Shown here: positions 9,694 through 53,170 of the stretch, one piece after another | Position numbering within the stretch: the stretch's first letter is position 1 | How the letters are laid out: each line of letters opens with the position of its first letter | NCBI GenBank assembly: GCA_001817065.1 | Contig: MHHQ01000015.1 | Span: 1,017 to 65,016, forward strand | DNA: 64,000 bases | Source: Candidatus Andersenbacteria bacterium RIFCSPHIGHO2_02_FULL_46_16 | GTDB taxonomy: Bacteria; Patescibacteriota; Andersenbacteria; UBA10190 | Direction of reading: 5' to 3' | Notes under the pieces: generated by a model | Database searches by the model: none | What the model was told of the DNA's origin: nothing | Seen by the model: the letters and a program-made list of their open reading frames with translations, nothing else | Made by a program: the position numbers and the translations under genes

Positions 9694-10254
9694 ATGAGTC
9701 ACTATAGACATCAGAAGTATTGGCAGCGTTTTTTGTTGCCGGGAGAATCAATTGTTTTTTGTTTTGGGGTGAGCGGAGCATATCTGATACTGTTTTGGAT
9801 GATACCGGCGATGGTGATGACAGCACTGGCTATATATTCGGTTTTTATAAACGTGATCCTAGGCTTCTTACTGGGGATAGTGGCTGTGAGCGTGTATTTG
9901 CCTATCTTGTACCGGAGATATTTTGTACACTATGCTATAACTGACCGTCGGGTGATGACTAGGGAGGGTCTGTTACACAAAACATTTGTGACGGCTGATT
10001 TACCGTCGGTTACGGATGTAACTATCGATGAATCTTTTCTGGAGAGGGTTTTAACGGGCACCGGGATTGTGGGTATCAATACTGCCGGTAGCAATCGTGT
10101 CGAGCTGCATTTTGATCATGTGAAAAGGCCGTTTGCGCTGAGAAAAGAGATTTATCGGAATCAATATAAGGTAATTGAAGAGCGTAAATTAATGTCGTTG
10201 CAGAAAAACGGATATAGTGAAGAACAAGTTCCGGTGCAGCCGCAAATTTTATAG
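9694..10254 (+). CDS. Membrane protein with bacterial PH domain (bPH_2/YdbS-like)
   Basis: Two TM helices followed by a YAITDRRVMTREGLLHKTFVTADLPSVTDV... PH-like segment. Confidence 0.55.
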   Translation: MSHYRHQKYWQRFLLPGESIVFCFGVSGAYLILFWMIPAMVMTALAIYSVFINVILGFLLGIVAVSVYLPILYRRYFVHYAITDRRVMTREGLLHKTFVTADLPSVTDVTIDESFLERVLTGTGIVGINTAGSNRVELHFDHVKRPFALRKEIYRNQYKVIEERKLMSLQKNGYSEEQVPVQPQIL

Positions 10255-10348
10255 GTTGGTTAGTGAACAGGCGATACGGGGTCGAGGAGTGGGCTAACTG
10301 CTTTTTTTAGTTAATTTATTCTTCTTTTTCAGGGAGAGAAACGGGCAT

Positions 10349-10483
10349 GTAACTGCTCACTGGTCTAGGAAGACTATTGGCTAAGATAAGACGTTATAAT
10401 TTTTCACTTTTAAGAAAACCTTCTTTTTCTGGCTCTAAATATGGCTTAACCTAGTAATCCACCCTTAACCTGTGAGCAGTTAC
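10349..10483. mobile_element. 135-bp MITE (copy 1) with 12-bp perfect TIRs gtaactgctcac/gtgagcagttac, flanked by 8-bp TSD ACGGGCAT
   Basis: Same 135-bp sequence (about 4 substitutions) recurs at 43384-43518; direct repeat acgggcat at 10341-10348 and 10484-10491. Confidence 0.75.
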
Positions 10484-10595
10484 ACGGGCATGGGTTGACA
10501 AAATGCTTGTGGTGTGATATATACTATACGTAGTGTTTTTAATGCTTGTTCGTTTCAATTTTGTTTCTTCGTACCTCAAGAAAGAGAGGGTCAAG

Positions 10596-11696
10596 ATGTC
10601 AGGCAAGAATTGGATTTTCGAAGTGCCGACGAACCATGGGAATGTATCGATTGCCGTCCATCCTGGGCCGCATACAGATGAGCTGCTAGCTATTATGATG
10701 ATTCAGAAAGCAGCAACGAGGCAGTTTGTGATGGATCATCAGGCAGAGACAATCGGATTGGGTGTGGAGGGTGGACCGTATGATGAACACCCGAACAACG
10801 GTAAGCCGAGAAAGGTCGGTGAATGCACGGCCACGTTAGTGGGTAAAGCGCTGGGAATTCATCAGGATCCGGTATGGGAGCGGATGCTCCGGTTCGCTTA
10901 CTGGGTAGACCAAGGTGAACCCATGCCTAGAGTGGATGACGGGGAAGGATCTTTTCCGGAGGAATGGAACCATCCCTTCGACATCAACAACTTGTTCAAG
11001 TGTCATTGGCGGCGTTTGAGCAAAGGGAAAAAGGAGGTGCCAGTAGAGAAGGGGCTTGAGTATGTGACGTGGGCGTTGGAAATTCTCGATAATTTCTGGG
11101 CACAGCAAAGGGACTTCATTGCAGCCGAGGAGGAGATTAGGAAGAATTCAGAAACGAGGACTATGATGCATAAAGGAAGACCTTTGGATGTCATGTTGAT
11201 TCGGTCTGATAACCCGGAAATCAACGCAGCAGCGCGATACTTCTTCAGGGCGGGGCTCGTGATAATTCGCCATAGCCTGGGGCATGTCCGCATTTTCCGC
11301 AACAAGCAGAACGGAGTCGGATTGGATGACCTGATGAAGCTAATTACGATCCGAGAGTGCGAATTACGGGGAGAGCCGTATACCGGGAGATGGGATGAAC
11401 TGAAGAATGAAGGAGAAGGACCGGGCGGGATCTGGTATTACTTTAGACAGCACGGAATGTTGTTGAATGGGTCTGAACAGCACGAGAAACCGTCAACGGT
11501 CATCAATGATGATGAGTTGCTGAGACTGGTAGCAACGGCGTTAGACACAGACTTGTTTCACCCGCCGTTAGAGGACACGTGTAAAAAAGGATCATGTCGT
11601 CATTCCCGAACAACGCCGTGCCCGTTGTACCAGTACGGATTGGGTCGTTGTCAGAAAGTGAGGTACGACGAAGCCAGGAACCGGATTTCTGGTTAA
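10596..11696 (+). CDS. Hypothetical protein, possible MYG1/UPF0160-like metal-dependent hydrolase (weak)
   Basis: RBS AAGAAAGAGAGGG before ATG 10596; N-terminal VHPGPHTDELLAI resembles the GTHxGxFHxDEALA motif of MYG1-family hydrolases; C-terminal Cys cluster; GC content higher than surroundings. Confidence 0.4.
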   Translation: MSGKNWIFEVPTNHGNVSIAVHPGPHTDELLAIMMIQKAATRQFVMDHQAETIGLGVEGGPYDEHPNNGKPRKVGECTATLVGKALGIHQDPVWERMLRFAYWVDQGEPMPRVDDGEGSFPEEWNHPFDINNLFKCHWRRLSKGKKEVPVEKGLEYVTWALEILDNFWAQQRDFIAAEEEIRKNSETRTMMHKGRPLDVMLIRSDNPEINAAARYFFRAGLVIIRHSLGHVRIFRNKQNGVGLDDLMKLITIRECELRGEPYTGRWDELKNEGEGPGGIWYYFRQHGMLLNGSEQHEKPSTVINDDELLRLVATALDTDLFHPPLEDTCKKGSCRHSRTTPCPLYQYGLGRCQKVRYDEARNRISG

Positions 11697-13994: not shown

Positions 13995-14065
13995 GAAAAT
14001 TTGGGTCGAGAAAAGTTTTCACTCCTTGTTAATTCTAATAATGAAAAATTTTGGAGCCAGATATG
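13995..14065. repeat. Island repeat module A (AAATTTGGG + covarying hairpin + CCAGATATG)
   Basis: Homologous to modules at 14816-14890 and 17204-17280; interrupted at its 3' end by the 172-bp GC-rich element. Confidence 0.6.
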
Positions 14066-14233
14066 GAAGTCACATTATGAAATGCCACAAATATAGTGAC
14101 GGGCCCTGTCGGCGCTGCACCCCCACCCGACGGCTTCGGCCTGCCAGGCGGGCAGCCTGCAGGCGCTCGGTGGGGGTCCCCCGCGCCGCCACCCGTTTAT
14201 TTAAGAGTGGCATTTCATAATGTGACATCTATA
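14062..14233. repeat. 172-bp GC-rich palindromic element, copy 1
   Basis: Identical except 1 nt to copies at 41665-41836 and 45464-45635; 20-bp perfect TIR gtcacattatgaaatgccac / gtggcatttcataatgtgac; ~75% GC core. Confidence 0.8.
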
Positions 14234-14274
14234 GTTGGTGTTGGGCGATGTTGGATTTCATTTTCCATTCCTTA

Positions 14275-14688
14275 TTATTGTATTTTAAATAAATCGCCGT
14301 TTAGTATAACTGGTTGCATTGCAAGAAGTTCGTCAGTATAAATCATCTCTGGAATATCATTTAATATGAAAATTGTTTTATTCAAACAGTGCGCAAAACC
14401 CATTTCCAAAAAAGAATTGCCCCCGATATAATTACGAATACCCTTTTTATCAATATTAACTATCAATACAGCATCAGCGTTTTTAATCTTCTCAAAATAA
14501 TCACGAATTAAATCATGTTCAATCTTGTTTTTGGTAGATTCGTGAGAAGATTCCTCGGCCAATACTTTTTCGGCATATTTCTTGGTGTGTTTCGGTAATA
14601 CAACTTCGTGATTATTTTGAAGCAATTCTTTTTTAGCGGCTAACATTTGAACAGCTGACGACATGCTTCCGCAAATAACAATTTTCAT
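14275..14688 (-). CDS. Nucleoside 2-deoxyribosyltransferase-like (NDT/SLOG-fold) protein
   Basis: MKIVICGSMS N-terminus and GGNSFLEMGFAHCLNKTIFILN resemble the NDT-family Gly-rich start and catalytic Glu segment. Confidence 0.5.
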   Translation of the reverse strand: MKIVICGSMSSAVQMLAAKKELLQNNHEVVLPKHTKKYAEKVLAEESSHESTKNKIEHDLIRDYFEKIKNADAVLIVNIDKKGIRNYIGGNSFLEMGFAHCLNKTIFILNDIPEMIYTDELLAMQPVILNGDLFKIQ

Positions 14689-14815
14689 ATTTTTCTGTGG
14701 CTAGGTGATTTATTTAAAATATTTTTATAAAGGGAAAATGGAAGCCAATTTCGCACAATGTTTCGGGATATCTGATGTTTCTGGCTCGATTCAATATAAA
14801 TGTAGAAAAGAGCCT

Positions 14816-14890
14816 GAAATATGGGTCGAAGAAATTTGACATACCTTATTTATTAAATGCGTCAAATTTCTGAGCTAGATATCCCGTGTT
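14816..14890. repeat. Island repeat module B
   Basis: AAATATGGGTCGAAGAAATTTGAC...GTCAAATTTCTGAGCTAGATATCCCGTGTT; hairpin stem AAATTTGAC/GTCAAATTT. Confidence 0.6.
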
Positions 14891-14938
14891 CTGCGACCCG
14901 AAGGGCTTGAGTCGCAAAAAAATTTATAATCGGCTTGG

Positions 14939-15481
14939 TCACTTCTTAATTTTAGTTTCAGGATACCTTACGATAACAGAAAAAATATCCCCTTTATCGT
15001 CCAGCTCATCAAGTCTAGTAAAAAGGTCCAAAACTATGTCATCAGTAATATCTTCTTTAAGCCGTATAATGAGCGCGCGATTGATTCCGAGTTGTTTATA
15101 TAAACTTTCCATCGCTTGAAATTTTCTCTCTTTATTTTTAACAACGGTATGCTTTCCGCTGGTTACATCCACTGCGTAGTTTTTGCCATGGAAGGTAAAC
15201 ATCATGTCAATGCCGAGCATACGATCCAATAAAATATCTTTCGGTAAATCAGATAGCTTTAGGCCTTCATCGCGCAACTTTTGCACCACCAGTTCATATC
15301 TCTGCGGAAAGCCCTGTTTGACCTGCTCTAAGATTTTTCCCTCGCCATCTTCAAGAGAGAAAATTTCAACGCCAAGATCGCGCGCGGCTTCAATCAGTTT
15401 GTGCATTCTTTGCTCTGCCAACATTGAAACTTCGTTTACATAGTTTGGGGATATTTTTTCTTGTTTTGGTGATTCAAACAT
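14939..15481 (-). CDS. Hypothetical protein (180 aa)
   Basis: ORF track; same orientation as the other island genes; no recognisable family. Confidence 0.45.
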   Translation of the reverse strand: MFESPKQEKISPNYVNEVSMLAEQRMHKLIEAARDLGVEIFSLEDGEGKILEQVKQGFPQRYELVVQKLRDEGLKLSDLPKDILLDRMLGIDMMFTFHGKNYAVDVTSGKHTVVKNKERKFQAMESLYKQLGINRALIIRLKEDITDDIVLDLFTRLDELDDKGDIFSVIVRYPETKIKK

Positions 15482-15855
15482 AGATTATAAATTTTTTGCT
15501 ATTTCCGATAAAGTCGTCGGTATATCTGAAGTTTACGACTAAAACTTTAGTTTTAGGAAGTAAATTTAAGATATACCGTGCTAGGCAAAGTCGCGAAACG
15601 ACGAGCAGAACACGGCGCAGCCGACGACTTTATGCAAAAGAGCGAAGCGATTTTGCATAACGTTTCAGAATATGCGATATTTGCCAGCGGTACAATATGC
15701 CCGAAGGGCGACCGCTGGCAAATATGGGTGTAGCGACCAGCGGGAGCGGAACCGCATATTCTGTGTTATACGCGCCGAAGGCCGAGCCAGAGTGCAACGT
15801 CCCGTAGCGAAGCGGAGGGCTGGCGAAGAGTCCGTCCCGCCCGACACTTCATCAC

Positions 15856-16350
15856 TTACTTTGTTTGCAAAAGGGCAGAAATTTTGTTTTCCAGATGGTC
15901 AATCCCGCCAAATTCTTTGACCGGAATTGATTTTATTTTGGCTCTCGTTTCAGGATTAACATGTGTAATTGTCATTTCTTCTGTTCCGCCGATACTTTCG
16001 CAATCATCTTCTATGAGTACATCTGGCATGACTCTCTCAGCTACATTTTTGTATTCTTCATCTCCGAGGCGGAATAGAAGTTGACCGTCTGGAAAATTGA
16101 ACTGTTTCAAAACCGCACGAACAGCTTCTATTTCATCTGACTTTCGACGTGATGTGAGATACAAAATTTCTGCCCCTTGGTTTTTCCACGAAGTCAATTT
16201 TTTCACTGCGCCACCGATTGGCACATATGAAGTATATTCCTTCACAGAAGGCTCTTTGGCTTTAACCTGTTGCACAATTTTCTCATGTGAATGCCCTACT
16301 GCGTTTTTGTGCATCGTTATTGTGCCTTCTGTGAATACCATGATTTTCAT
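15856..16350 (-). CDS. Hypothetical protein (about 164 aa, start MKIMVFTEGTI)
   Basis: ORF track 15856-16449; internal ATG at 16350 preferred; no recognisable family. Confidence 0.4.
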   Translation of the reverse strand: MKIMVFTEGTITMHKNAVGHSHEKIVQQVKAKEPSVKEYTSYVPIGGAVKKLTSWKNQGAEILYLTSRRKSDEIEAVRAVLKQFNFPDGQLLFRLGDEEYKNVAERVMPDVLIEDDCESIGGTEEMTITHVNPETRAKIKSIPVKEFGGIDHLENKISALLQTK

Positions 16351-16723
16351 AATAGCAGTGAAAAATTGATGTCCTTTATAAATTGTACCAATTAAGGGCG
16401 GGACGGATTGCGTATAACGTTCACCGATAAGCGAAGTTTTATTGAGCAAAGCGAAATAAAATTTGGGAAAATGCCGAGCCGAGGCATTTTCCGCTTATCG
16501 CGTTGTTAAACGACCCGAGCCCGCCTTTCCTTATTATAATATAAAATAATAAGGCGGGCAGAGCGCAGCGGGGCTTGAGTTTTGTTCAAAAATATATTCC
16601 TTATTAAATAAGCCCTTCTGAAATTTTTCGTCCGCGCTTGATTGACTTTTTGGTCACGATATGCTTAAGTGTACTATCCAGTCAACTTCGACTGGCAACG
16701 ACAATTAAAAGGAGGATAATGAT

Positions 16724-16972
16724 ATGCCATACGATCCGAGACCAGTAAGTGAGGGTGGCAACAGCGGTATCGACGAACGGTTTTCGCGAAAGGCTCCATC
16801 TGGAAAGTTCCGCGTCGTCATGGTTGACACATTTGACGGCACGGACTCTGTTGTCGGCGACTACACGCGCCGAGGCGCACAGAGGGTCGCCAAGAAAAAG
16901 GGTGGCGAAATGACCAAGATGTACGTTTACAACGACGAGGGTAAGTGCGTTGGGGAAACCGGAACTTTCTAG
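16724..16972 (+). CDS. Small hypothetical protein (82 aa), high-GC
   Basis: Perfect SD AAGGAGG 8 nt upstream of ATG; terminator hairpin 17005-17043 downstream; opposite strand to neighbouring island genes. Confidence 0.6.
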   Translation: MPYDPRPVSEGGNSGIDERFSRKAPSGKFRVVMVDTFDGTDSVVGDYTRRGAQRVAKKKGGEMTKMYVYNDEGKCVGETGTF

Positions 16973-17004
16973 TCGCAACTCATCATCAAGCCCAGTCGGC
17001 CATG

Positions 17005-17043
17005 GCCTGCTTGCATATGAATAATGTGGGCAGGTCTTTTTTT
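17005..17043 (+). terminator. Rho-independent terminator
   Basis: gcctgc...gcaggt stem followed by TTTTTTT. Confidence 0.5.
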
Positions 17044-17203
17044 GTAAAAATTTCAAAAGGGCTTAAATTTAAAATGAAAAAATATTTTTGAACAAAATTT
17101 CGTTTAACGTATCGGCATCATCTGAAGTTGCGCCCATTTTCAAAGGCTAAAACTTCAAATTTCCACCTATCATTATTATATCACCAAACTTTTATGTCAC
17201 GGC

Positions 17204-17280
17204 GCAATTTGGGAGAAGAAATTTTGCATGCCTTGATTTATAATTGTGCAAAATTTCTGAACCAGATATGCCGTGTTAGC
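17204..17280. repeat. Island repeat module C
   Basis: CAATTTGGGAGAAGAAATTTTGCA...TGCAAAATTTCTGAACCAGATATGCCGTGTT; 10-bp stem AAATTTTGCA/TGCAAAATTT. Confidence 0.6.
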
Positions 17281-17297
17281 TGATGTAAATTTAAAAA

Positions 17298-17585
17298 TTA
17301 TTTTTGAAACTTCCTTTGACAATCTATTGCAACTTTTATACATTCTTCCGGATCATACCCAAGGTCTTCACACCATCTTATCGTCGAAAATATAATATTA
17401 CCCAGTTCTTTTTTAAGTTCATCATCGGTATGCACACTTTTATCTTTTACAGCGTCACGTTCCCAGCGACAAATATCACCAAACACCTTGCCCATACGGA
17501 CAATGATTTGACTGAGGCTTAATTTCTGGTCGCCCCAAATATCGCGGCTTTGTTGCAATAGATTTTTTATTTCCATAGATTTCAA
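17298..17585 (-). CDS. MazG-like nucleotide pyrophosphohydrolase (small all-alpha NTP-PPase)
   Basis: 95 aa; ELKKELGNIIFSTIRWCEDLGYDPEECIKVAI resembles the MazG EXXE...ELGDxL...LgiD helix signature. Confidence 0.55.
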   Translation of the reverse strand: MKSMEIKNLLQQSRDIWGDQKLSLSQIIVRMGKVFGDICRWERDAVKDKSVHTDDELKKELGNIIFSTIRWCEDLGYDPEECIKVAIDCQRKFQK

Positions 17586-17673
17586 AAATAATTTTTAAAT
17601 TTATTTCAGCTAACTGGTTATTAAATGAACTTACGGATGTACTTTAGCATAATTTAGTATGTTATGCATACTT

Positions 17674-17682
17674 TTGATATAA
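17674..17682 (+). promoter_or_regulatory. Extended -10 element TGATATAAT for the recombinase gene
   Basis: TGaTATAAT lies 8 nt upstream of the GTG start at 17690, which would make the mRNA leaderless. Confidence 0.4.
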
Positions 17683-17689
17683 TAGTGAT

Positions 17690-18502
17690 GTGGAAAATGT
17701 TTTGGATAAAACCGAACGGATATTGCGATTGCGTAACTATAGTTCAAAGACTCGTAAAGCGTATTTGCTATATATAAAGGATTTTATCACGTTTTCCAAG
17801 AGAGTAGGTATTAGAAATAAACAAAAAGCAATTGAAGAGTTTTTACTTGATAAACATAAGCGAGGACAATCGCCGCAGACAATTAATCTTGCGTTGAATG
17901 CAGTGAAGTTTTTTTACCGCGAAGTATTAAAAGATCCGCAAAAAATAGATTTGAAAATGGCCAAGAGAAGTAAGAAATTGCCGGTTGTACTTTCACGCGC
18001 GGAAATTAAGAAGATTATTGATGGTACCAAGAACACAAAATATCGGTTAATGATTGCGCTGGGTTATGCCTGCGGTTTGCGAGTGAGCGAAGCGGTCAGT
18101 CTAAAAGTGCAGGATTTGGATATTGATGAATTGGTTGTCCACATAAAAAAAGGAAAGGGAAAAAAAGACAGAATTAGCGTATTACCGGAAAAATTGCAAA
18201 ACAATCTACGCAATTTAATAGCTGGTAAGAATAAAGGAGAATATGTTTTTAGTTCCAACCGTGGCGGACTCCTGACCACAACATCTTTACAAAAGATGTT
18301 TCGTCAAAGTTTGGCAAACGCGAGGATTAACAAGTTGGCAACTTTCCATTCATTGCGTCATTCTTTCGCGACGCACTTGCTGGAAAATGGCATCGATGTG
18401 CGCTACGTCCAAGAATTGCTTGGGCACGCCAATATCAGAACGACGCAAATATATACACGGGTGACAAATCCCGGGTTAAAGAAGATAAAAAGCCCGCTAT
18501 GA
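17690..18502 (+). CDS. Tyrosine site-specific recombinase (XerC/XerD-like integrase, 270 aa)
   Basis: C-terminal HSLRHSFATHLLENGIDVRYVQELLGHANIRTTQIYTRV carries the R..H..R..Y catalytic signature; N-terminal SAM-like core-binding domain; GTG start. Confidence 0.85.
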   Translation: MENVLDKTERILRLRNYSSKTRKAYLLYIKDFITFSKRVGIRNKQKAIEEFLLDKHKRGQSPQTINLALNAVKFFYREVLKDPQKIDLKMAKRSKKLPVVLSRAEIKKIIDGTKNTKYRLMIALGYACGLRVSEAVSLKVQDLDIDELVVHIKKGKGKKDRISVLPEKLQNNLRNLIAGKNKGEYVFSSNRGGLLTTTSLQKMFRQSLANARINKLATFHSLRHSFATHLLENGIDVRYVQELLGHANIRTTQIYTRVTNPGLKKIKSPL

Positions 18503-22609: not shown

Positions 22610-23650
22610 TTAGATTAGGTATTTCTTGATAGAGATAGCTAATCCAAGCGAACCCATAACGATTGAGGCAACACTGGTTGCACCGGCGCCGGTGGCAGCT
22701 GTCACCGGAACTGGGATGGGTGAAGTGGGTTGGGTCGTAGTTACTGCTTTGACACCACCTGGTATAGACACGATAGTGGTGTCTGTGTCGGTGTCGGAGA
22801 GACCCTTGTTTTCACTACGGGCTTTAACGGAATTGACTAGAGATTTGCCGTCTGAGGCATCTTTATCAACTTTAACTTCGACAAAGAAGGTTAATGTTTC
22901 GCCGCCACTGATAGCGATATCAGACCAGGTAATTGTGCGGCCTTCGATGAATCCGCCGCTAGATACTCGAGTGATAGCGACTAAACTAGGAATGGTATCG
23001 GTTACTACTAGATCATCAACAGTTCCTTCCCCATCATTTTTGACAGTGATTTCGTAGGTTAGGACATGGCCGGGACGAGTGATAGCGCGATGATCCGTTT
23101 TAGTCACTGTTAAGCTAGCTGCCTTATCGTTATCGTCTTCTGGTTCAGGGGAAGGACTAGGACTGGGTGATGGAGATGGCGAGGGACTGGGTGATGGTGA
23201 AGGACTGGGACTTGGACTAGGACTGGGTGATGGAGATGGACTTGGAGACGGAGATGGTGAAGGACTGGGACTTGGACTAGGACTGGGTGATGGAGATGGA
23301 CTTGGTGATGGAGATGGTGAAGGACTTGGACTTGGAGACGGAGATGGTGAAGGACTTGGACTGGGTGATGGAGATGGCGAGGGACTTGGACTGGGTGATG
23401 GAGATGGACTAGGACTGGGTGATGGAGATGGGCTTGGAGACGGAGATGGTGAAGGACTTGGACTGGGTGATGGAGATGGGCAAGGGGAGGGGCTGGGTGA
23501 GGGAGAAGGTGTTGGAGAGTCACAGTAACATGCAGCGTCCGTGCTTTTTGGATTTATAAACGCTGATGCAGTTCCTGCTATCGCTACGATCAAAGTTATC
23601 GCAAGGAGGCGATTGATCCATTTGATTTTGTTTTGATTATCGCCGGTCAT
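22610..23650 (-). CDS. Cell-surface protein: signal peptide, long (Ser-Pro)n linker, DUF11-like conserved repeat domain, C-terminal TM anchor
   Basis: About 75 SP dipeptides; [42 protein letters not shown] is DUF11-like; C-terminal hydrophobic [12 protein letters not shown]. Confidence 0.7.
23150..23520. repeat. Tandem hexanucleotide repeat (SP codons) with nested 60-bp higher-order period
   Basis: 60-bp units at 23198-23257 and 23258-23317 are identical; ggagatgg/ggtgatgg units throughout. Confidence 0.8.
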
Positions 23651-34029: not shown

Positions 34030-34460
34030 CACAAATAAAGCACAGTACATAAAATACAAACAAAACAACGAATGACCAAATCCTAAATCCTAAAAGAGTG
34101 AAGTGTTAAGAAATCCAAATGTCAAAATCCAAATGTCAATTCAATGGCAAATGTCAAATTTTTACAATTTACAATTTTTCCCTAAGGGATCCTTTCGGGA
34201 CAACTTTCAAATAAATATCAATGCTTCAATTTTCAAACAGCGAAATATGAAATCCTAAATCCTAAACTGGAGAAATCCGAAACAAATAGAATTGTTAAAA
34301 AATCCAAATGCCAAAATCCAAATGCCAATTCAATGACAAATGTCAAAATTATAAATAAATCCTAAAACCTTAAATCCTAAACAAATCAGAATAACGAAAA
34401 ACTAAAAACGAAGAACGTAAAACAACAATGCAAAATTGAAAACCCCCTGCTACGTTCTAA
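34030..34460. repeat. A-rich low-complexity mosaic repeat region (AAATCCNAAAT / CAAATGTC units) with an internal ~170-bp duplication
   Basis: 34079-34145 and 34248-34340 are imperfect duplicates; related blocks at 41464-41620, 42655-42900, 45690-45810, 52930-53170 and 55890-56010. Confidence 0.7.
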
Positions 34461-35429: not shown

Positions 35430-37958
35430 ATGAATGAATACGATAGCCAGAGTGTTGAAGCTAAATGGCAAAAACGGTGGGAAGAGGAGAGGTTATTTGC
35501 GCCACGGGAGGAAACAACGGGGCGGAAGATGTATGTGTTGGACATGTTTCCATATCCGTCGGGGGATGGATTGCACGTCGGGCACGTGAAGATTTATACG
35601 GCAGCTGATGTCGTATCGAGATATTTGCGTATGAAAGGCATGAATGTTCTGCATCCGACAGGCTGGGACGCATTTGGGTTACCGACAGAAAACACAGCCA
35701 TAAAAAAGAAAGTTCATCCGGCTGATTTAACCAAACAAAATATTGAGCGGTTTAAAAAGCAGATGCAAGCGGTGGGTTACTCATATGACTGGGATCGTGA
35801 GATCAATACTTCGGATCCTGATTACTATCGTTGGACGCAATGGATTTTCATCAAATTGTTCAATATGGGTTTGGCTTACGAGGCGACTATACCGATAAAC
35901 TGGTGCCCGAGCTGCAAAACAGGACTGGCTAATGAAGAGGTGGAGGATGGTAATTGTGAGCGATGCGGGACAGTGGTAGTAAAGAAACCGATCAGACAGT
36001 GGATGTTGAAAATTACAAAATATGCCGATCGTTTATTACAGGGTCTGGATGGATTGGATTGGCCGAAGGCTGTGCCGGAGATGCAACGGAATTGGATTGG
36101 GCGGAGCGAGGGAGCAGAAGTTGATTTTAAAGTTGAAGGCACCAGAGAAGCGATCAAAGTGTTTACGACGCGCCTGGATACTATTTATGGCACAACTTAT
36201 TTGGTTTTAGCGCCAGAGCATGAATTAGTACTGAAGCTAGTGAATGGTCAAATGGACGGGGTGGTATTGGGTAACAAAGATGAGGTACAAGCTTATGTAA
36301 TGCAGGTTAAAGATAGAAGCGATCGAGACAGGGTGGCAGATAGCGAGATAAAGTCGGGGGTGGAAATGAAAGGTTTGATGGTAAGTAATCCAGTTAATCG
36401 CCAGCTCATACCAGTGTGGGTCGCTGATTATGTGTTGGGTAGTTATGGGACGGGAGCGGTAATGGCGGTGCCAGCGCATGACGAACGGGACTTTATGTTT
36501 GCGAAACAGCATCAGTTGCCGATATTACAGGTAATACAACCTAAAATCGCCAAGGGTAATGCCCAACTGCCTTATACTGGTGAAGGAGTGTTGATAAACG
36601 CGGACGAACAGAGCGGGTTGAAAAGCGAGGTGGCGAGAGAAACACTCGTAAAAGTACTGCAACTGAAGGGTGAGGGGAGGAAGAAGGTTAATTATTTCCT
36701 CCGTGATTGGGTTTTTTCTCGTCAGAGATATTGGGGAGAACCAATTCCCATTATTCATTGTGAAGAATGCGGAGCGGTGCCGGTACCGGAGGAAGATTTA
36801 CCAGTGAGGCTGCCAGATATCAAAGAGTATGAACCGACGGGAACAGGAGAGTCTCCTTTGGCTTCCGCGGCAGATTGGATTGAAGTTAAATGTCCAAATT
36901 GCCCGCGCATAGGTAAAAGAGAAACAAATACTATGCCCCAATGGGCGGGATCTAGCTGGTATTGGTTGCGGTACTTGGACCCAACGAATCGAGAAGAGTT
37001 AGCTAGTCGGGAGATTATGGACAAATGGTTGCCGGTTGACTTGTATGTGGGGGGTGCAGAGCATGCGGTTTTGCATTTGTTGTATGCTCGTTTTTGGAAT
37101 ATGGCTTTGTTTGATCAGGGGGTCGTGGCGCACGAGGAGCCGTTCACCCGTTTTCGAGCCGTCGGTTTATTACTAGGTGAAGATGGACAGAAGATGAGCA
37201 AGTCGCGGGGGAATGTTATCAATCCTGATACTGTGATTAGCCGGGTGGGGGCGGATGCGCTGCGAGTTTATGTCATGTTTATGGGTCCGTTTAGCAACGC
37301 TATGCCATGGAGCGAAACAAGTTTAATTGGAGTAAGCCGGTTTTTGCGGCGTGTGTGGAAAAGAGTTGGTTCATTGATTGATAAATTGTCAGAACAGGAT
37401 TCCGCTGACATGAGTTATGTGTTGCACGACACGATAAAGCGGGTATCAGAAGGCATTGAGCAGTTTAAATTTAATACTGCGGTGGCGGCATTAATGGAGA
37501 TGTTGAATAAACTTGAGGAGGGAGAAGGGGTATCGCGCAGTACGCTTGAAGCTTTTGTTTTGATGTTAGCGCCACTGGCACCGCATATGGCGGAGGAGCT
37601 TTGGGAGCAGCTGGGACATCCCGAGTCTTTAATATATCGCGCTTGGCCAAAGTTGAATCAAAGTATTCTGGCAGCAGCGGTTAAGCGTATAGCAGTGCAA
37701 GTGAATGGCAAAGTGAGAGGGGAGATTGATATGGTGCCAGGGATGGCGCAAAGCAAAGCAGAAGAGTTGGCCCGGTTGGAGAAAAACGTCGCCAAATATT
37801 TAGGGGCCAGCATCGTGAAGAAGGTTGTTTATGTGGAAGGGCGCATGTTGAATTTTGTAGTCGAAAATGGAGAAAATCCGAAAGACGAAACTAAAGAAGT
37901 CCCTGCCTACCGGCAGGCAGGCGAAACAAATCCGAAATCTGAAATTTCTAAATTCTGA
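35430..37958 (+). CDS. leuS: Leucyl-tRNA synthetase
   Basis: YPSGDGLHVGHV (HIGH motif), KMSKSRGN (KMSKS motif) and a CP1 editing domain; the last ~30 codons are supplied by an intergenic-type repeat. Confidence 0.9.
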   Translation: MNEYDSQSVEAKWQKRWEEERLFAPREETTGRKMYVLDMFPYPSGDGLHVGHVKIYTAADVVSRYLRMKGMNVLHPTGWDAFGLPTENTAIKKKVHPADLTKQNIERFKKQMQAVGYSYDWDREINTSDPDYYRWTQWIFIKLFNMGLAYEATIPINWCPSCKTGLANEEVEDGNCERCGTVVVKKPIRQWMLKITKYADRLLQGLDGLDWPKAVPEMQRNWIGRSEGAEVDFKVEGTREAIKVFTTRLDTIYGTTYLVLAPEHELVLKLVNGQMDGVVLGNKDEVQAYVMQVKDRSDRDRVADSEIKSGVEMKGLMVSNPVNRQLIPVWVADYVLGSYGTGAVMAVPAHDERDFMFAKQHQLPILQVIQPKIAKGNAQLPYTGEGVLINADEQSGLKSEVARETLVKVLQLKGEGRKKVNYFLRDWVFSRQRYWGEPIPIIHCEECGAVPVPEEDLPVRLPDIKEYEPTGTGESPLASAADWIEVKCPNCPRIGKRETNTMPQWAGSSWYWLRYLDPTNREELASREIMDKWLPVDLYVGGAEHAVLHLLYARFWNMALFDQGVVAHEEPFTRFRAVGLLLGEDGQKMSKSRGNVINPDTVISRVGADALRVYVMFMGPFSNAMPWSETSLIGVSRFLRRVWKRVGSLIDKLSEQDSADMSYVLHDTIKRVSEGIEQFKFNTAVAALMEMLNKLEEGEGVSRSTLEAFVLMLAPLAPHMAEELWEQLGHPESLIYRAWPKLNQSILAAAVKRIAVQVNGKVRGEIDMVPGMAQSKAEELARLEKNVAKYLGASIVKKVVYVEGRMLNFVVENGENPKDETKEVPAYRQAGETNPKSEISKF
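37873..37957. repeat. A-rich mosaic repeat containing palindrome cctgcctaccggcaggcagg, copy 1 (forms the leuS 3' end)
   Basis: About 45 bp (gaaactaaagaagtccctgcctaccggcaggcaggc) shared with 41502-41544. Confidence 0.7.
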
Positions 37959-41463: not shown

Positions 41464-41545
41464 CGAAAATCCGAAATCTACCTGAATGGATGTCTTCGGG
41501 AGAAACTAAAGAAATCCCTACCTACGGCAGGCAGGCCCAACAAAT
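41464..41545. repeat. A-rich mosaic repeat, copy 2 of the block seen at the leuS 3' end
   Basis: Sequence similarity to 37873-37957. Confidence 0.7.
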
Positions 41546-41664
41546 AAGAAGTCTATAAATCCAAATGTCCCTCCTTCGCATAAAGTTTTGGGTGACAAGT
41601 CGGAAGCGTAGGCAAAACACAAAACTATAAAACTTTATCCCAAAGGAACCCCCTAGGGGCAAAC

Positions 41665-41836
41665 TATGGAAGTCACATTATGAAATGCCACAAATATAGT
41701 GACGGGCCCTGTCGGCGCTGCCCCCCCACCCGACGGCTTCGGCCTGCCAGGCGGGCAGCCTGCAGGCGCTCGGTGGGGGTCCCCCGCGCCGCCACCCGTT
41801 TATTTAAGAGTGGCATTTCATAATGTGACATCTATA
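41665..41836. repeat. 172-bp GC-rich palindromic element, copy 2
   Basis: Differs from copies 1 and 3 by a single A to C change (gctgcccccccacc). Confidence 0.8.
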
Positions 41837-41946
41837 TAACAAATCGGTAACAAACTTTATAAACACTGGAATTATAATAATCAGCAGTTGCTTTATGGGG
41901 CAAAGATGTTTAAAAAGGTAATAACTAGTATTAATTACAAATATTT

Positions 41947-43235: not shown

Positions 43236-43810
43236 ATGCTGAAAGTGTTTTTAAGGTTTCGCGGGATTTCGGATGATGTCAAAACGATATTTGATAAGGA
43301 GGCACCCTTTAAGAAGATTATTGCAGAAATGCAAGGGATCAGCATGCCAACTATCACTTCTTCTGTTCGTATGGCTACTAAGGGTAACTGCTCACTGGTC
43401 GAGGAGGACTATTGGCTAAGATAAGACGTTATAATTTTTCACTTTTAAGAAAACCTTCTTTTTCTGGCTCTAAATATGGCTTAACCTAGTAATCCACCCT
43501 TAACCGGTGAGCAGTTACTACTAAGGAATGCTCTGAAAATATCCAGAGACTTGTAGCAGCGGAGGGTGAAGCTAAAGATGTTGAAATTGAAATTGATGAT
43601 GTATCAATGAATCTTTATGGAGACAGCGATTTTTCCTTTGAAGTCGTTGGTGATGGGATCTGGTTGACAATTGGGGGTGGTCTTAAGCTATTCTTTCAAG
43701 GTAAAAGTGCGGGTTATTTTACGGAGGCAATGACTGGAATCCTAGGAACCTTGAGTCGACTAAATCATGTCATTAGCGATTTCCCTTTTAATCCTAAGGA
43801 AGATGATTAG
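43236..43810 (+). pseudogene. Gene for an approx. 144-aa hypothetical protein split by a MITE insertion
   Basis: Strong SD AAGGGAGG before ATG 43236; removing the element (43384-43518) plus one copy of the TSD joins ORF 43236-43424 in frame to ORF 43607-43810. Confidence 0.7.
43384..43518. mobile_element. 135-bp MITE (copy 2), TIRs gtaactgctcac/gtgagcagttac, 8-bp TSD TACTAAGG
   Basis: TACTAAGG at 43376-43383 and 43519-43526; element is about 97% identical to copy 1 at 10349-10483. Confidence 0.8.
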
Positions 43811-45349: not shown

Positions 45350-45463
45350 AGGATGCTTAAAATTGATAAAATCTTGATGGAAGGTGCTAGATAAGGTCGG
45401 ATTAGCCTAGTGCTAAACGACCAATAAGGGGCTTAAAATGTAAGGAAGCGCAATATAGAGAAC

Positions 45464-45635
45464 TATGGAAGTCACATTATGAAATGCCACAAATATAGTG
45501 ACGGGCCCTGTCGGCGCTGCACCCCCACCCGACGGCTTCGGCCTGCCAGGCGGGCAGCCTGCAGGCGCTCGGTGGGGGTCCCCCGCGCCGCCACCCGTTT
45601 ATTTAAGAGTGGCATTTCATAATGTGACATCTATA
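45464..45635. repeat. 172-bp GC-rich palindromic element, copy 3
   Basis: Identical to copy 1. Confidence 0.8.
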
Positions 45636-45689
45636 GGTCTTCTGACATGCGTCAAAGTTAGCAGAAGAAGGGGGAGGGGGCAAGAGGAA

Positions 45690-45810
45690 GGGGAATGAAT
45701 CAGAATGACCAATGATCAATGACCAATGCCCAATCAATGACAATGGTTAAAATTTTCAATTTCCAATTTTCAAATAAGTATCAAGGTATCAATTCTCAAA
45801 CAGTGAGGAA
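45690..45810. repeat. A-rich low-complexity mosaic repeat
   Basis: gaatgaccaatgatcaatgaccaatgcccaatcaatgac...caaataagtatcaaggtatcaattctcaaacagtga; 45761-45808 is similar to 34204-34248. Confidence 0.65.
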
Positions 45811-52929: not shown

Positions 52930-53170
52930 ATATAAATACTCAAATCCTAAATTCTTAAATCCGAAACAAATTTGAATATTTAAAACTGAAAACGTCCTGC
53001 TACGCTAATGCTTTATTTTTTGGATGAAGCCTCGGACGAAAGGTCTGAAGGAAAAGTAAGGCGTAAAATCAAAATGTCAAAGGCCAAATGTCTATTCAAA
53101 TCCAAATGTCAAAGAAGGCAAGAATAAAAGCTTAGTGTCCAAACCACAAAATCCCAATACCAAAAAAATC
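52930..53170. repeat. A-rich low-complexity mosaic repeat
   Basis: caaatcctaaattcttaaatccgaaacaaat...aaaatcaaaatgtcaaaggccaaatgtctattcaaatccaaatgtcaaag. Confidence 0.6.

What the first reader, a model, noticed from the sequence alone, without database searches (positions are those of the whole stretch)
10341..10491. MITE copy 1 with a different 8-bp TSD (ACGGGCAT), confirming the element's boundaries and transposition signature
Element 10349-10483 has the same 12-bp TIRs and is bracketed by acgggcat on both sides (10341-10348 and 10484-10491). Two independent insertions with different 8-bp TSDs and identical TIRs fix the element length at 135 bp and show that the duplications are not coincidental. 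The two copies differ at only about 4 positions. This copy sits about 100 bp upstream of the high-GC gene 10596-11696 and may influence its expression.
Basis: seen in the sequence. Interest (0 to 1): 0.6.

Follow-up and report, generated by a model that had tools for sequence, protein, structure and literature searches.

The report
Promoter-homing IS66-family MITE copy
This is a real 135-bp miniature transposon of the IS66 family, and it and its transposase-encoding relatives almost always land exactly 11 bp in front of a promoter's TTGACA box, a gene-sparing insertion habit so far described only for other transposon families.

Summary
Window 10349-10483 is a 135-bp element with perfect 12-bp terminal inverted repeats (GTAACTGCTCAC), flanked by ACGGGCAT on both sides. 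A second copy lies at 43384-43518 (3 differences, not 4), flanked by TACTAAGG. A metagenome scan added about seven more insertion sites. Three have perfect 8-bp duplications, one a decayed one (6/8), two have unmatched flanks, and one is cut by a contig end.

The likely mobilising elements were found: 1543-bp and 1606-bp single-gene IS66-family insertion sequences. They have GTAA-type repeats (20/21 match to the MITE right end) and 8-bp duplications, and they sit on the same contigs as MITE copies.

The unexpected result is where they insert. In 10 of 27 distinct flanks, TTGACA starts exactly 12 nt outside the element end (8-bp duplication plus 3 nt), and it occurs at any other offset only once. 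It is usually followed 17 nt later by a TGnTATAAT-like box and a gene. Copy 1 fits this rule (TTGACA 10495-10500, gene 10596-11696).

Fixed-distance insertion upstream of -35 boxes is known for TnGBS, ISLre2 and ISKra4 elements. I found no report of it for the IS66 family. No empty site was recovered, and any effect on expression is untested.

The parts
10341..10348 (.). Left copy of the 8-bp target-site duplication, ACGGGCAT
   Evidence: Read directly. It is identical to 10484-10491.
10349..10483 (+). MITE copy 1: 135 bp, 37% GC, no ORF inside
   Evidence: 98% identical to 43384-43518. It is 100% identical to the same site in L134 and 94.8-99.3% identical to copies at other sites. No Rfam family matches it.
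10349..10369 (+). Left terminal inverted repeat. The first 12 nt (GTAACTGCTCAC) pair perfectly with the right end. Over 21 nt it matches the IS-1543 repeat 17/21.
10463..10483 (-). Right terminal inverted repeat (reverse complement GTAACTGCTCACAGGTTAAGG). It matches the 21-bp repeat of the 1543-bp IS66-family element 19/21 here, and 20/21 in the copies that carry C at position 13.
10484..10491 (.). Right copy of the 8-bp target-site duplication, ACGGGCAT
   Evidence: Read directly.
10495..10500 (+). TTGACA (-35-like hexamer), 3 nt beyond the duplication. This is the family's target landmark.
   Evidence: TTGACA sits at this same offset in 10 of 27 distinct flanks. See also the table.
10515..10523 (+). 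TGaTATATA, an extended -10-like element 17 nt after TTGACA
   Evidence: Read directly. The flank consensus shows T-A-t-a-x-T at this spacing. The consensus scanner did not call it, because TATATA lacks T at position 6.
10596..11696 (+). Downstream gene (366 aa, no Pfam hit), presumably served by that promoter. Its ATG is 112 nt from the MITE end.
43376..43526 (+). MITE copy 2 (43384-43518) with its duplication TACTAAGG on both sides. There is no TTGACA at the rule position. It splits an open frame.
   Evidence: Removing the element plus one duplication restores a 143-codon frame (43236-43810), but no intact homologue exists in the protein database.

Best explanation
Window 10349-10483 is a non-autonomous miniature transposon (MITE) of the IS66 family, in its single-ORF, ISBst12-like branch. 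It carries only the transposase-binding ends (GTAA-type terminal repeats). It is moved in trans by the 480-490-aa DDE transposase of co-resident 1.5-1.6-kb insertion sequences that have nearly the same ends. Integration uses cuts staggered by 8 bp, which produces the ACGGGCAT duplication. Target choice is not random. The transposition complex places the 8-bp staggered cut so that the element end lies 11 bp (8-bp duplication plus 3 bp) upstream of a TTGACA -35 hexamer, in either orientation, with the promoter always pointing away from the element. Copy 1 therefore lies at about -47 of the promoter-like site of gene 10596-11696. The core promoter and both neighbouring genes stay intact, so this is a low-cost 'safe haven'. 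Shown: the anatomy, the family of copies, the partner IS, its family assignment and the positional rule. Inferred: mobilisation in trans by these particular transposases, that the TTGACA sites are working promoters, and how the hexamer is read. My split on that last point is about 45% direct DNA reading by the transposase and about 40% tethering to sigma/RNA polymerase at the promoter. The sub-terminal part of the repeats reads CTTGACC or CTTAACC on the same strand, which makes reading by the end-binding domain conceivable.
For: Anatomy.

More sites: a metagenome scan with an internal 21-mer gave 13 loci, about 7 further sites. Perfect duplications are AACGCGCG (L131), AATTCTTT (L140/L136) and CCCGAGAA (L149). 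L141 has a decayed 6/8 duplication.

Partner IS: a 1543-bp element with perfect 21-bp repeats GTAACCGCTCACCGGTTAAGG, duplication TAACGTTG and one 480-aa ORF. That ORF hits Pfam DDE_Tnp_IS66 at 4.6e-33 and NCBIfam NF033517 'IS66 family transposase' at 186 bits against a cutoff of 180. A second IS of 1606 bp has a transposase 60% identical.

Physical linkage: MITE and IS lie on one contig in L147 and L149 (IS-1543) and in L135 (IS-1606).

Positional rule: TTGACA starts at offset 12 in 10 of 27 distinct flanks, plus one TTGACG, and at any other offset once. P is below 1e-10 even with a background of 0.02 per position. For the MITE alone it holds at 6 of 9 sites. It also holds for relatives from other samples: the P0011 element has TGATGCTT-acg-TTGACA-17-TATATT, the P0016 element has GCTGCGAG-gac-TTGACA-17-TATGAT, and the P0112 element (45% identical) has GTAGTTTT-ggt-TTGTCA.

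The hexamer is target DNA, not cargo. It lies outside the duplication, the 11 intervening nt are not conserved, and a related species keeps the same TTGACA...TATATA promoter before the orthologous gene with no IS.

The targets look like real promoters. A -10 match of at least 4/6 at 16-18 nt is present in 10/13 adjacent hexamers against 6/19 other intergenic TTGACA in the window (p=0.015). ORFs with ribosome-binding sites start 40-145 nt downstream.
Against: No empty (unoccupied) site was recovered for copy 1 or copy 2. Every contig retrieved through the flanking genes is occupied or ends inside the element. Mobility therefore rests on duplications and the multiplicity of sites.

Two MITE copies have unmatched flanks (L132, L135/L138). 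Three MITE sites (copy 2, L141, the left side of L143) show no TTGACA.

The IS was not shown to reside in the window's own genome. IS contigs are short and their composition is uninformative (tetranucleotide r 0.4-0.7), and NCBI bins of this organism did not return the IS-adjacent gene.

The MITE interior is unrelated to the IS beyond roughly 30 nt at the ends, and no IS with the exact GTAACTGCTCAC tip was isolated.

The consensus promoter scanner calls nothing at 10150-10700. No transcription data are available.

Three Bacillota IS66-family elements show no TTGACA at this position, so the rule is a property of this clade and not of the family.
Confidence: 0.8

Rival explanations
1. The targeting is real, but the landmark is read indirectly. 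The transposase docks on sigma factor or RNA polymerase sitting at promoters, as was proposed for TnGBS by analogy with yeast Ty3, and does not recognise TTGACA DNA itself.
For: Insertion-adjacent hexamers are enriched for a proper -10 at 17 nt compared with other intergenic TTGACA (10/13 against 6/19). The flank consensus shows TGnTAtaaT. The duplicated 8 bp falls at about -46 to -39, where the RNA polymerase alpha C-terminal domain contacts DNA next to sigma region 4 (textbook knowledge). PMC3942029 proposes such tethering for the other promoter-targeting families.
Against: The hexamer is invariant (TTGACA 10 times, TTGACG once) although working promoters tolerate much variation. The P0112 element sits by TTGTCA with no obvious -10 and with the next gene on the other strand. 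The -10 enrichment could equally come from selection removing insertions elsewhere. Nothing sigma-like was found in the transposase.
Confidence: 0.4
2. Insertion is essentially random. Only copies that happened to land just upstream of promoters survive, because gene-dense small genomes purge everything else.
For: The window is about 79% coding, and copy 2 shows that non-promoter insertions do occur.
Against: Selection cannot produce a single-nucleotide-exact spacing: offset 12 occurs in 10 flanks and every other offset only once. A TTGACA hexamer at that position is found next to five different elements from different samples (exact beside four of them, TTGTCA, 5 of 6, beside the fifth).
Confidence: 0.03
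3. The 135-bp repeat is not a transposon. It would be a host regulatory or structured-RNA module (REP- or BOX-like, or an upstream promoter element) copied by recombination, and the flanking 8-mers would be incidental.
For: As RNA the element folds better than shuffles (-35.4 kcal/mol, z=-3.5). It contains a perfect TATAAT at element positions 47-52 reading toward the gene.
Against: Five perfect and different 8-bp flank duplications. Ends match those of a transposase-bearing IS with the same duplication length and the same target rule. The fold is just the terminal repeats pairing. There is no Rfam match. One copy sits inside an open frame.
Confidence: 0.03

Closest known systems
IS66 family, single-ORF ISBst12-like group (for example ISBst12 of Geobacillus stearothermophilus and annotated IS66-family elements on Bacillus, Geobacillus and Anoxybacillus plasmids)
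   Same: The partner elements encode one DDE transposase that hits PF03050 and NF033517. They are about 1.5-1.6 kb long, have GTAA-starting terminal repeats and make 8-bp duplications. The three plasmid elements checked here also have GTAA(C/T) ends and perfect 8-bp duplications, and the B. thuringiensis repeat GTAACTACTCAG matches 10/12.
   Different: Protein identity to the closest plasmid-borne members is only 24-28%. Those three known elements show no TTGACA 3 nt beyond the duplication. A 135-bp MITE derivative and a promoter-proximal target rule are, as far as I could find, not described for this family.
Promoter-upstream-targeting Mutator-like elements: TnGBS conjugative elements, the ISLre2 family and the ISKra4 group (Brochet 2009; Guerillot et al. 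2014, PMC3942029)
   Same: These insert at a fixed short distance upstream of the -35 box of sigma-A/sigma-70 promoters, with the promoter pointing away. Elements with near-perfect repeats are found in both orientations, and end-to-end junctions are separated by a few flank-derived bp. The same is seen here: both orientations with perfect 21-22-bp repeats, and IS-TAACGTTG-IS junction contigs.
   Different: [quoted passage not shown] The junction-to-hexamer distance is 11 bp rather than 13-17 bp. Here a non-coding MITE follows the rule as well. The hosts are uncultured groundwater bacteria rather than Firmicutes. The best structural match of the transposase model to a solved IS256-family (Mutator-like) transposase is not significant (E=0.017).
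Bacterial MITEs in general (for example Correia/NEMIS, Nezha, MITEAba12)
   Same: Short and non-coding, with terminal inverted repeats, a fixed-length target duplication, multiple near-identical copies, mostly intergenic location, and ends resembling those of an autonomous IS.
   Different: The other MITEs are tied to other IS families and other duplication lengths (from memory: Correia TA, MITEAba12 9 bp). None is known to me to home to a fixed position relative to the -35 box.

Membership tests
MITE (non-autonomous terminal-inverted-repeat element) | Small and without coding capacity | tested here: met
   135 bp with no ORF inside. The only ORF of 50 aa or more that touches it runs out of the element.
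MITE (non-autonomous terminal-inverted-repeat element) | Terminal inverted repeats at invariant end points | tested here: met
   A perfect 12-bp repeat. All complete copies are 135 or 136 nt with the same ends.
MITE (non-autonomous terminal-inverted-repeat element) | Target-site duplication of fixed length, different at each site | tested here: met
   Five perfect 8-bp duplications and one at 6/8. Two copies have unmatched flanks and one is cut by a contig end.
MITE (non-autonomous terminal-inverted-repeat element) | Autonomous relative with matching ends and the same duplication length | tested here: met
   IS-1543 repeats match 20/21 (MITE right end) and 17/21 (left end), with 8-bp duplications, on the same contigs as MITE copies.
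MITE (non-autonomous terminal-inverted-repeat element) | Presence/absence polymorphism (an empty site) showing movement | tested here: not met
   Every contig recovered through the flanking genes is occupied or breaks in the element. No intact homologue of the split ORF was found. Sampling was limited to one population.
IS66 family (partner IS) | DDE transposase matching the family profiles | tested here: met
   PF03050 at 4.6e-33. NF033517 equivalog at 186.2 bits against a cutoff of 180. A conserved D251/D305/E428 and a CxxC...CxxC zinc ribbon appear in the alignment. The zf-IS66 match is only sub-threshold (E=0.018).
IS66 family (partner IS) | Terminal repeats beginning GTAA, with 8-9 bp duplications (ISfinder description, from memory) | tested here: met
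   GTAACCGCTCAC... and GTAATCGCTCAC... repeats. Duplications TAACGTTG, CCAGTCAA, AATTTTTC, CCCGTTTT, TTTAGCCT and TGATGCTT.
IS66 family, ISBst12-like group | A single transposase ORF with no tnpA/tnpB accessory genes, length about 1.35-1.9 kb (from memory) | tested here: met
   Elements of 1543, 1606, 1640 and 1520 bp, each with one called gene of 477-490 aa.
Promoter-upstream-targeting p-MULT elements (TnGBS / ISLre2 / ISKra4) | Insertion at a fixed distance upstream of the -35 box | tested here: met
   TTGACA at offset 12 in 10/27 flanks. The distance is 11 bp here against 13-17 bp in PMC3942029.
Promoter-upstream-targeting p-MULT elements (TnGBS / ISLre2 / ISKra4) | Mutator-like (p-MULT 3 or 4) transposase carrying the signature motif | tested here: not met
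   The profiles assign the protein to IS66. Foldseek similarity to an IS256-family transposase is not significant. The signature motif itself was not examined. The element therefore works like these but is not filed as a member.

The most novel reading that the evidence does not exclude
A clade of IS66-family transposases from uncultured groundwater bacteria, together with a 135-bp MITE that rides on them, has independently acquired exact homing to the position 3 bp (plus the 8-bp duplication) upstream of the TTGACA -35 hexamer. This would be a third transposase lineage with promoter-upstream targeting and the first in which a MITE shows it. The invariance of the hexamer would point to direct reading of the -35 sequence, perhaps by the same domain that reads the CTTGACC-like motif in the element's own ends.
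Probability: 0.55. Interest if true: 0.6.

Novelty: new variant of a known kind. Interest (0 to 1): 0.5.

Why it matters
The MITE on its own is an ordinary new family member. Three things make it worth attention.

First, it comes with a clean sequence-level rule for where this transposon clade lands. Promoter-upstream homing would then have arisen in the IS66 family as well as in the Mutator-like TnGBS, ISLre2 and ISKra4 lineages. It would be a convergent way of multiplying in small, gene-dense genomes without breaking genes.

Second, the invariant TTGACA and the exact spacing make a long-open question directly testable with a small transposase and a 135-bp substrate: does the transposase read the DNA, or does it read the transcription machinery?

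Third, it has practical use. It gives a de facto map of consensus promoters in uncultured bacteria, it explains why assemblies of these genomes break just upstream of genes, and it warns that such repeats produce chimeric flank joins.

Tried and rejected
(1) The genome-contig scan with GTAACTGCTCACNGGT was too unspecific. The one look-alike, L056 from a Saccharibacteria contig, did not hold up.

(2) Empty-site search: look-ups through both flanking genes of copy 1 and through the gene next to copy 2 gave only occupied or broken contigs.

(3) The restored 143-aa ORF split by copy 2 has no intact homologue among 5.8 billion proteins. Gene disruption is therefore inferred from the restored frame only.

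(4) Rfam found nothing at the element.

(5) The consensus promoter and terminator scan found nothing at 10150-10700.

(6) I tested the idea that the transposase carries a sigma region-4-like helix-turn-helix. Pfam at E up to 10 on the N-terminal 247 aa gives only zinc-ribbon and coiled-coil noise. The AlphaFold model (pLDDT 74.5) has no significant PDB neighbour: the best is the ISCth4 transposase at E=0.017. The result is inconclusive.

(7) I tested whether TTGACA could be part of the element. This is rejected. It lies outside the duplication, the spacer is not conserved, and the promoter exists without the IS in a relative.

(8) I tested whether the rule is general to single-ORF IS66 elements. 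It was not seen in three Bacillota plasmid elements.

(9) The more distant P0127 element (44% identity) has different ends and nested or abutting elements. It was left uninterpreted.

(10) Tetranucleotide composition could not assign the short IS contigs to the window's genome.

Full report
**1. The observation**

ACGGGCAT lies at 10341-10348. GTAACTGCTCAC opens the element at 10349. Its exact reverse complement closes the element at 10483. ACGGGCAT follows again at 10484-10491.

The second copy, at 43384-43518, is flanked by TACTAAGG on both sides. The repeat finder reports the two 135-nt copies at 98% identity. They differ at three positions (18, 23, 123), not four. The exact 12-mer occurs nowhere else in the window. 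The element has 37% GC, contains no ORF and matches no Rfam family. As RNA it folds mainly by pairing of its two ends (-35.4 kcal/mol, z=-3.5).

**2. The source**

Exact-protein look-ups place the window in a population of uncultured bacteria recovered many times from groundwater metagenomes. NCBI bins include GCA_001817135.1, GCA_001817145.1, GCA_001817175.1, GCA_001001305.1 and GCA_003501005.1, and there are many ENA, JGI and Logan contigs. From the accession series and sample labels I take these to be the Rifle aquifer data sets and probably a Candidate Phyla Radiation (CPR) lineage. The tools did not show an organism name.

Several assemblies break inside copy 1: L001, L003 and L004 start 29-54 nt from its right end, and L174-L176 end inside it. 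That is what a multi-copy repeat does to short-read assemblers.

**3. More copies**

A metagenome scan with an internal 21-mer returned 13 loci. Together with loci fetched later, these define nine MITE insertion sites.
- Five have perfect and different 8-bp duplications: ACGGGCAT, TACTAAGG, AACGCGCG (L131), AATTCTTT (L140/L136) and CCCGAGAA (L149).
- The most diverged copy (94.8% identity, L141/L139) has a 6/8 duplication.
- Two have unmatched flanks (L132, L135/L138).
- One runs off its contig (L143).

End points never vary. L131, L132 and L134 come from one IMG data set, and L134 is 100% identical to the window. That genome therefore holds at least four copies. The flanks of L131, L132, L140 and L141 resemble the window in tetranucleotide composition (r 0.86-0.92).

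**4. The autonomous partner**

Contig L137 carried, 1.6 kb from a MITE, the tip of a second element with a similar end. I searched for homologues of the neighbouring 139-aa gene and then fetched the contigs that encode it. This revealed a 1543-bp insertion sequence with perfect 21-bp repeats GTAACCGCTCACCGGTTAAGG, the duplication TAACGTTG and a single 480-aa gene.

The protein hits Pfam DDE_Tnp_IS66 (4.6e-33) and passes the NCBIfam equivalog 'IS66 family transposase' (186 against 180 bits). An alignment of 22 homologues shows four regions:
- an N-terminal coiled coil,
- a CxxC...CxxC zinc ribbon, with only a sub-threshold zf-IS66 match,
- a four-helix domain,
- a conserved D/D/E triad.

The MITE's right end matches the IS repeat 20/21 and its left end 17/21. 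A second IS of 1606 bp has the repeat GTAATCGCTCACAGGTCAAGGA and a transposase 60% identical, and it occurs in the same samples. MITE and IS share contigs in L147 and L149 (IS-1543) and in L135 (IS-1606).

One ORF, about 1.5-1.6 kb, GTAA ends and 8-bp duplications are, from my memory of ISfinder, the description of the ISBst12-like group of the IS66 family. Three annotated plasmid elements that I checked show the same ends and duplications. They are only 24-28% identical in protein.

**5. Where they insert**

I lined up the outward flanks of all distinct element ends. TTGACA starts exactly 12 nt from the end, that is, after the 8-bp duplication and 3 more nt.
- It does so in 10 of 27 flanks, with one further TTGACG, and at any other offset only once. 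The reverse hexamer never appears.
- The binomial probability is below 1e-10 even if TTGACA had a 2% chance per position. Its actual frequency in the window is 3e-4.
- For the MITE alone the rule holds at 6 of 9 sites: on the right side for copy 1, L132, L135/L138 and L149/L137, and on the left side for L131 and L140.
- It holds for both ISs, again on either side.
- It holds for relatives from unrelated samples. The P0011 element has TGATGCTT-acg-TTGACA-17-TATATT. The P0016 element has GCTGCGAG-gac-TTGACA-17-TATGAT, and TTTACA-17-TAGATT at another site. The 45%-identical P0112 element in an NCBI genome has GTAGTTTT-ggt-TTGTCA.

The flank consensus continues with TG-n-T-A-t-a-x-T at a 17-nt spacing. 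ORFs preceded by ribosome-binding sites start 40-145 nt further on. A -10 match of at least 4/6 is present for 10 of 13 adjacent hexamers against 6 of 19 other intergenic TTGACA in the window (p=0.015).

The hexamer is target DNA, for three reasons. It lies outside the duplication. The 11 nt in between are unrelated from site to site. A related species keeps the same TTGACA...tgaTATATA promoter before the orthologous 139-aa gene with no IS present.

Copy 1 is a textbook case: ACGGGCAT-ggg-TTGACA (10495-10500), 17 nt, TGaTATATA (10515-10523), then the ATG at 10596. The simple consensus scanner did not call this site, because TATATA lacks the final T.

**6. Exceptions and assembly caveats**

Copy 2, L141 and the visible side of L143 have no hexamer. 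Copy 2 sits in an open frame: deleting the element plus one duplication restores a 143-codon ORF. No intact homologue exists, so the gene is an orphan at best.

Unmatched flanks are common on the IS contigs, and the halves re-pair across contigs. AATTTTTC pairs between L157 and L160. TTTAGCCT pairs between L157, L163 and L135. CCAGTCAA pairs between L146 and L156. This shows that assemblers, or real recombination, swap flanks across these repeats. The same may explain the two MITE copies without duplications, although L135 and L138 agree in two independent assemblies.

Contigs L144, L152 and L153 show IS-TAACGTTG-IS. This is either a second insertion into the regenerated target or reads from a circular intermediate.

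**7. Mechanism**

What is shown:
- a DDE-type element family with 8-bp staggered integration,
- a non-coding derivative with matching ends,
- a one-sided, orientation-independent landmark at a fixed distance.

What is inferred:
- The MITE is mobilised in trans by these transposases.
- Landing at about -47 leaves the core promoter and both genes intact, so copies persist.
- Either the transposase reads TTGACA itself or it docks on sigma/RNA polymerase.

The invariant hexamer and the TTGTCA site without a -10 lean toward direct reading. The -10 enrichment leans toward tethering or selection. I could not decide between them, and searches for a sigma-like domain gave nothing. The sub-terminal repeat reads CTTGACC or CTTAACC on the same strand, which is a lead and not evidence. 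Whether copy 1 changes expression of 10596-11696 is untested. It replaces everything upstream of about -47 and carries an internal TATAAT facing the gene.

**8. Comparison with what is known**

Fixed-distance insertion upstream of sigma-A promoters is established for TnGBS conjugative elements, the ISLre2 family and the ISKra4 group. All of these have Mutator-like transposases. The reported distance is 13-17 bp. Elements with perfect repeats insert in both orientations. End-to-end junctions are spaced by flank-derived bases (PMC3942029). The present elements behave the same way but belong, by profile, to the IS66 family. That paper does not mention IS66, and my literature searches found no target rule for it. 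Three Bacillota IS66 elements lack the rule.

I therefore rate the MITE as a new member of a known kind. I rate the targeting as a new variant of a known kind: the same strategy in a different transposase family, at 11 bp, and extended to a MITE.

**9. Verdict**

The added value is the identified IS66-family partner and the promoter-homing rule, which explains why copy 1 sits where it does. Interest is moderate (0.5). The result is solid and testable, but the phenomenon has precedents in other families.

Noticed in passing
L007 4726 (= window 43506-43623 missing); L002 1-38 (= window 10466-10587 missing): Two assemblies carry deletions of about 118-122 bp that start inside the right sub-terminal part of the MITE (element positions about 118-123) and run into the right flank. 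At copy 1 this removes the TTGACA and -10 site up to the ribosome-binding site. These could be real adjacent deletions or assembly artefacts.
   Followed up: partly
L144 3725-3756; L152 and L153 36-67: IS right end - TAACGTTG - IS left end: two IS-1543 copies head to tail, separated by exactly the 8-bp duplication. This is either repeated insertion into the regenerated target or a circle-junction signature.
   Followed up: partly
window 14053-14233, 41656-41836, 45455-45635: A second repeat family in the window: 181 nt, 3 copies, 97% identical. Strain assemblies differ by indels of about 100 bp at or next to two of the copies (window 45566-45671 and 41779-41881 are absent in L007, and 45529-45629 is replaced in L005).
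   Followed up: no
window 34100-34353, 45693-45757, 53055-53119: Intergenic clusters of AAATGTCAA / CCAAATG-type short repeats. They account for several of the window's TGTCAA/TTGACA hexamers that lack a -10 element.
   Followed up: no
window 1-64000 (dip at 14001-18000): GC skew is unusually strong and uniform, about +0.2 to +0.33 on the + strand, which carries most genes. It collapses to about 0 with lower GC (39-41%) at 14-18 kb.
   Followed up: no
window 23088-23576: Dense 6/12/18-nt periodic tandem repeats inside the minus-strand ORF 22610-23650, suggesting a repetitive low-complexity protein segment.
   Followed up: no
L158 3040-3300; L166 1615-1900; L187 right flank: A third kind of end, GTAACTGCTCACCGATTAAGGAAAG..., abuts IS-1606 after the 8-bp duplication CCCGTTTT. 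A GTAACTGCTCACTGCC end abuts the P0127 element after 8 bp. Several related elements therefore pile up at the same targets. The L158 flank also contains the CGGCAGGCAGG...AAATCCGAAAT motif seen at window 37911-37951 and 41525-41565.
   Followed up: no
L019, L044, L080, L083, L085, L116 (genome-contig scan): A conserved stretch, (t/g)aaagagtgcGTAACTGCTCACTGGTC/T..., recurs in Chloroflexota, KSB1, Dehalococcoidia and Zhuqueibacterota genomes. Conservation extends upstream of the 'repeat', so it looks like a conserved gene or RNA and not this transposon.
   Followed up: no
L149 2125-2808: A DDE_Tnp_1 (IS4/IS5-type) transposase gene lies about 285 bp from the left end of the CCCGAGAA MITE copy. This is another mobile element in the same neighbourhood.
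   Followed up: no
L142 3109-3243: A variant of the L141 site in another data set. The MITE is truncated on the left (only element positions 26-135 remain) and joined to unrelated sequence.
   Followed up: no
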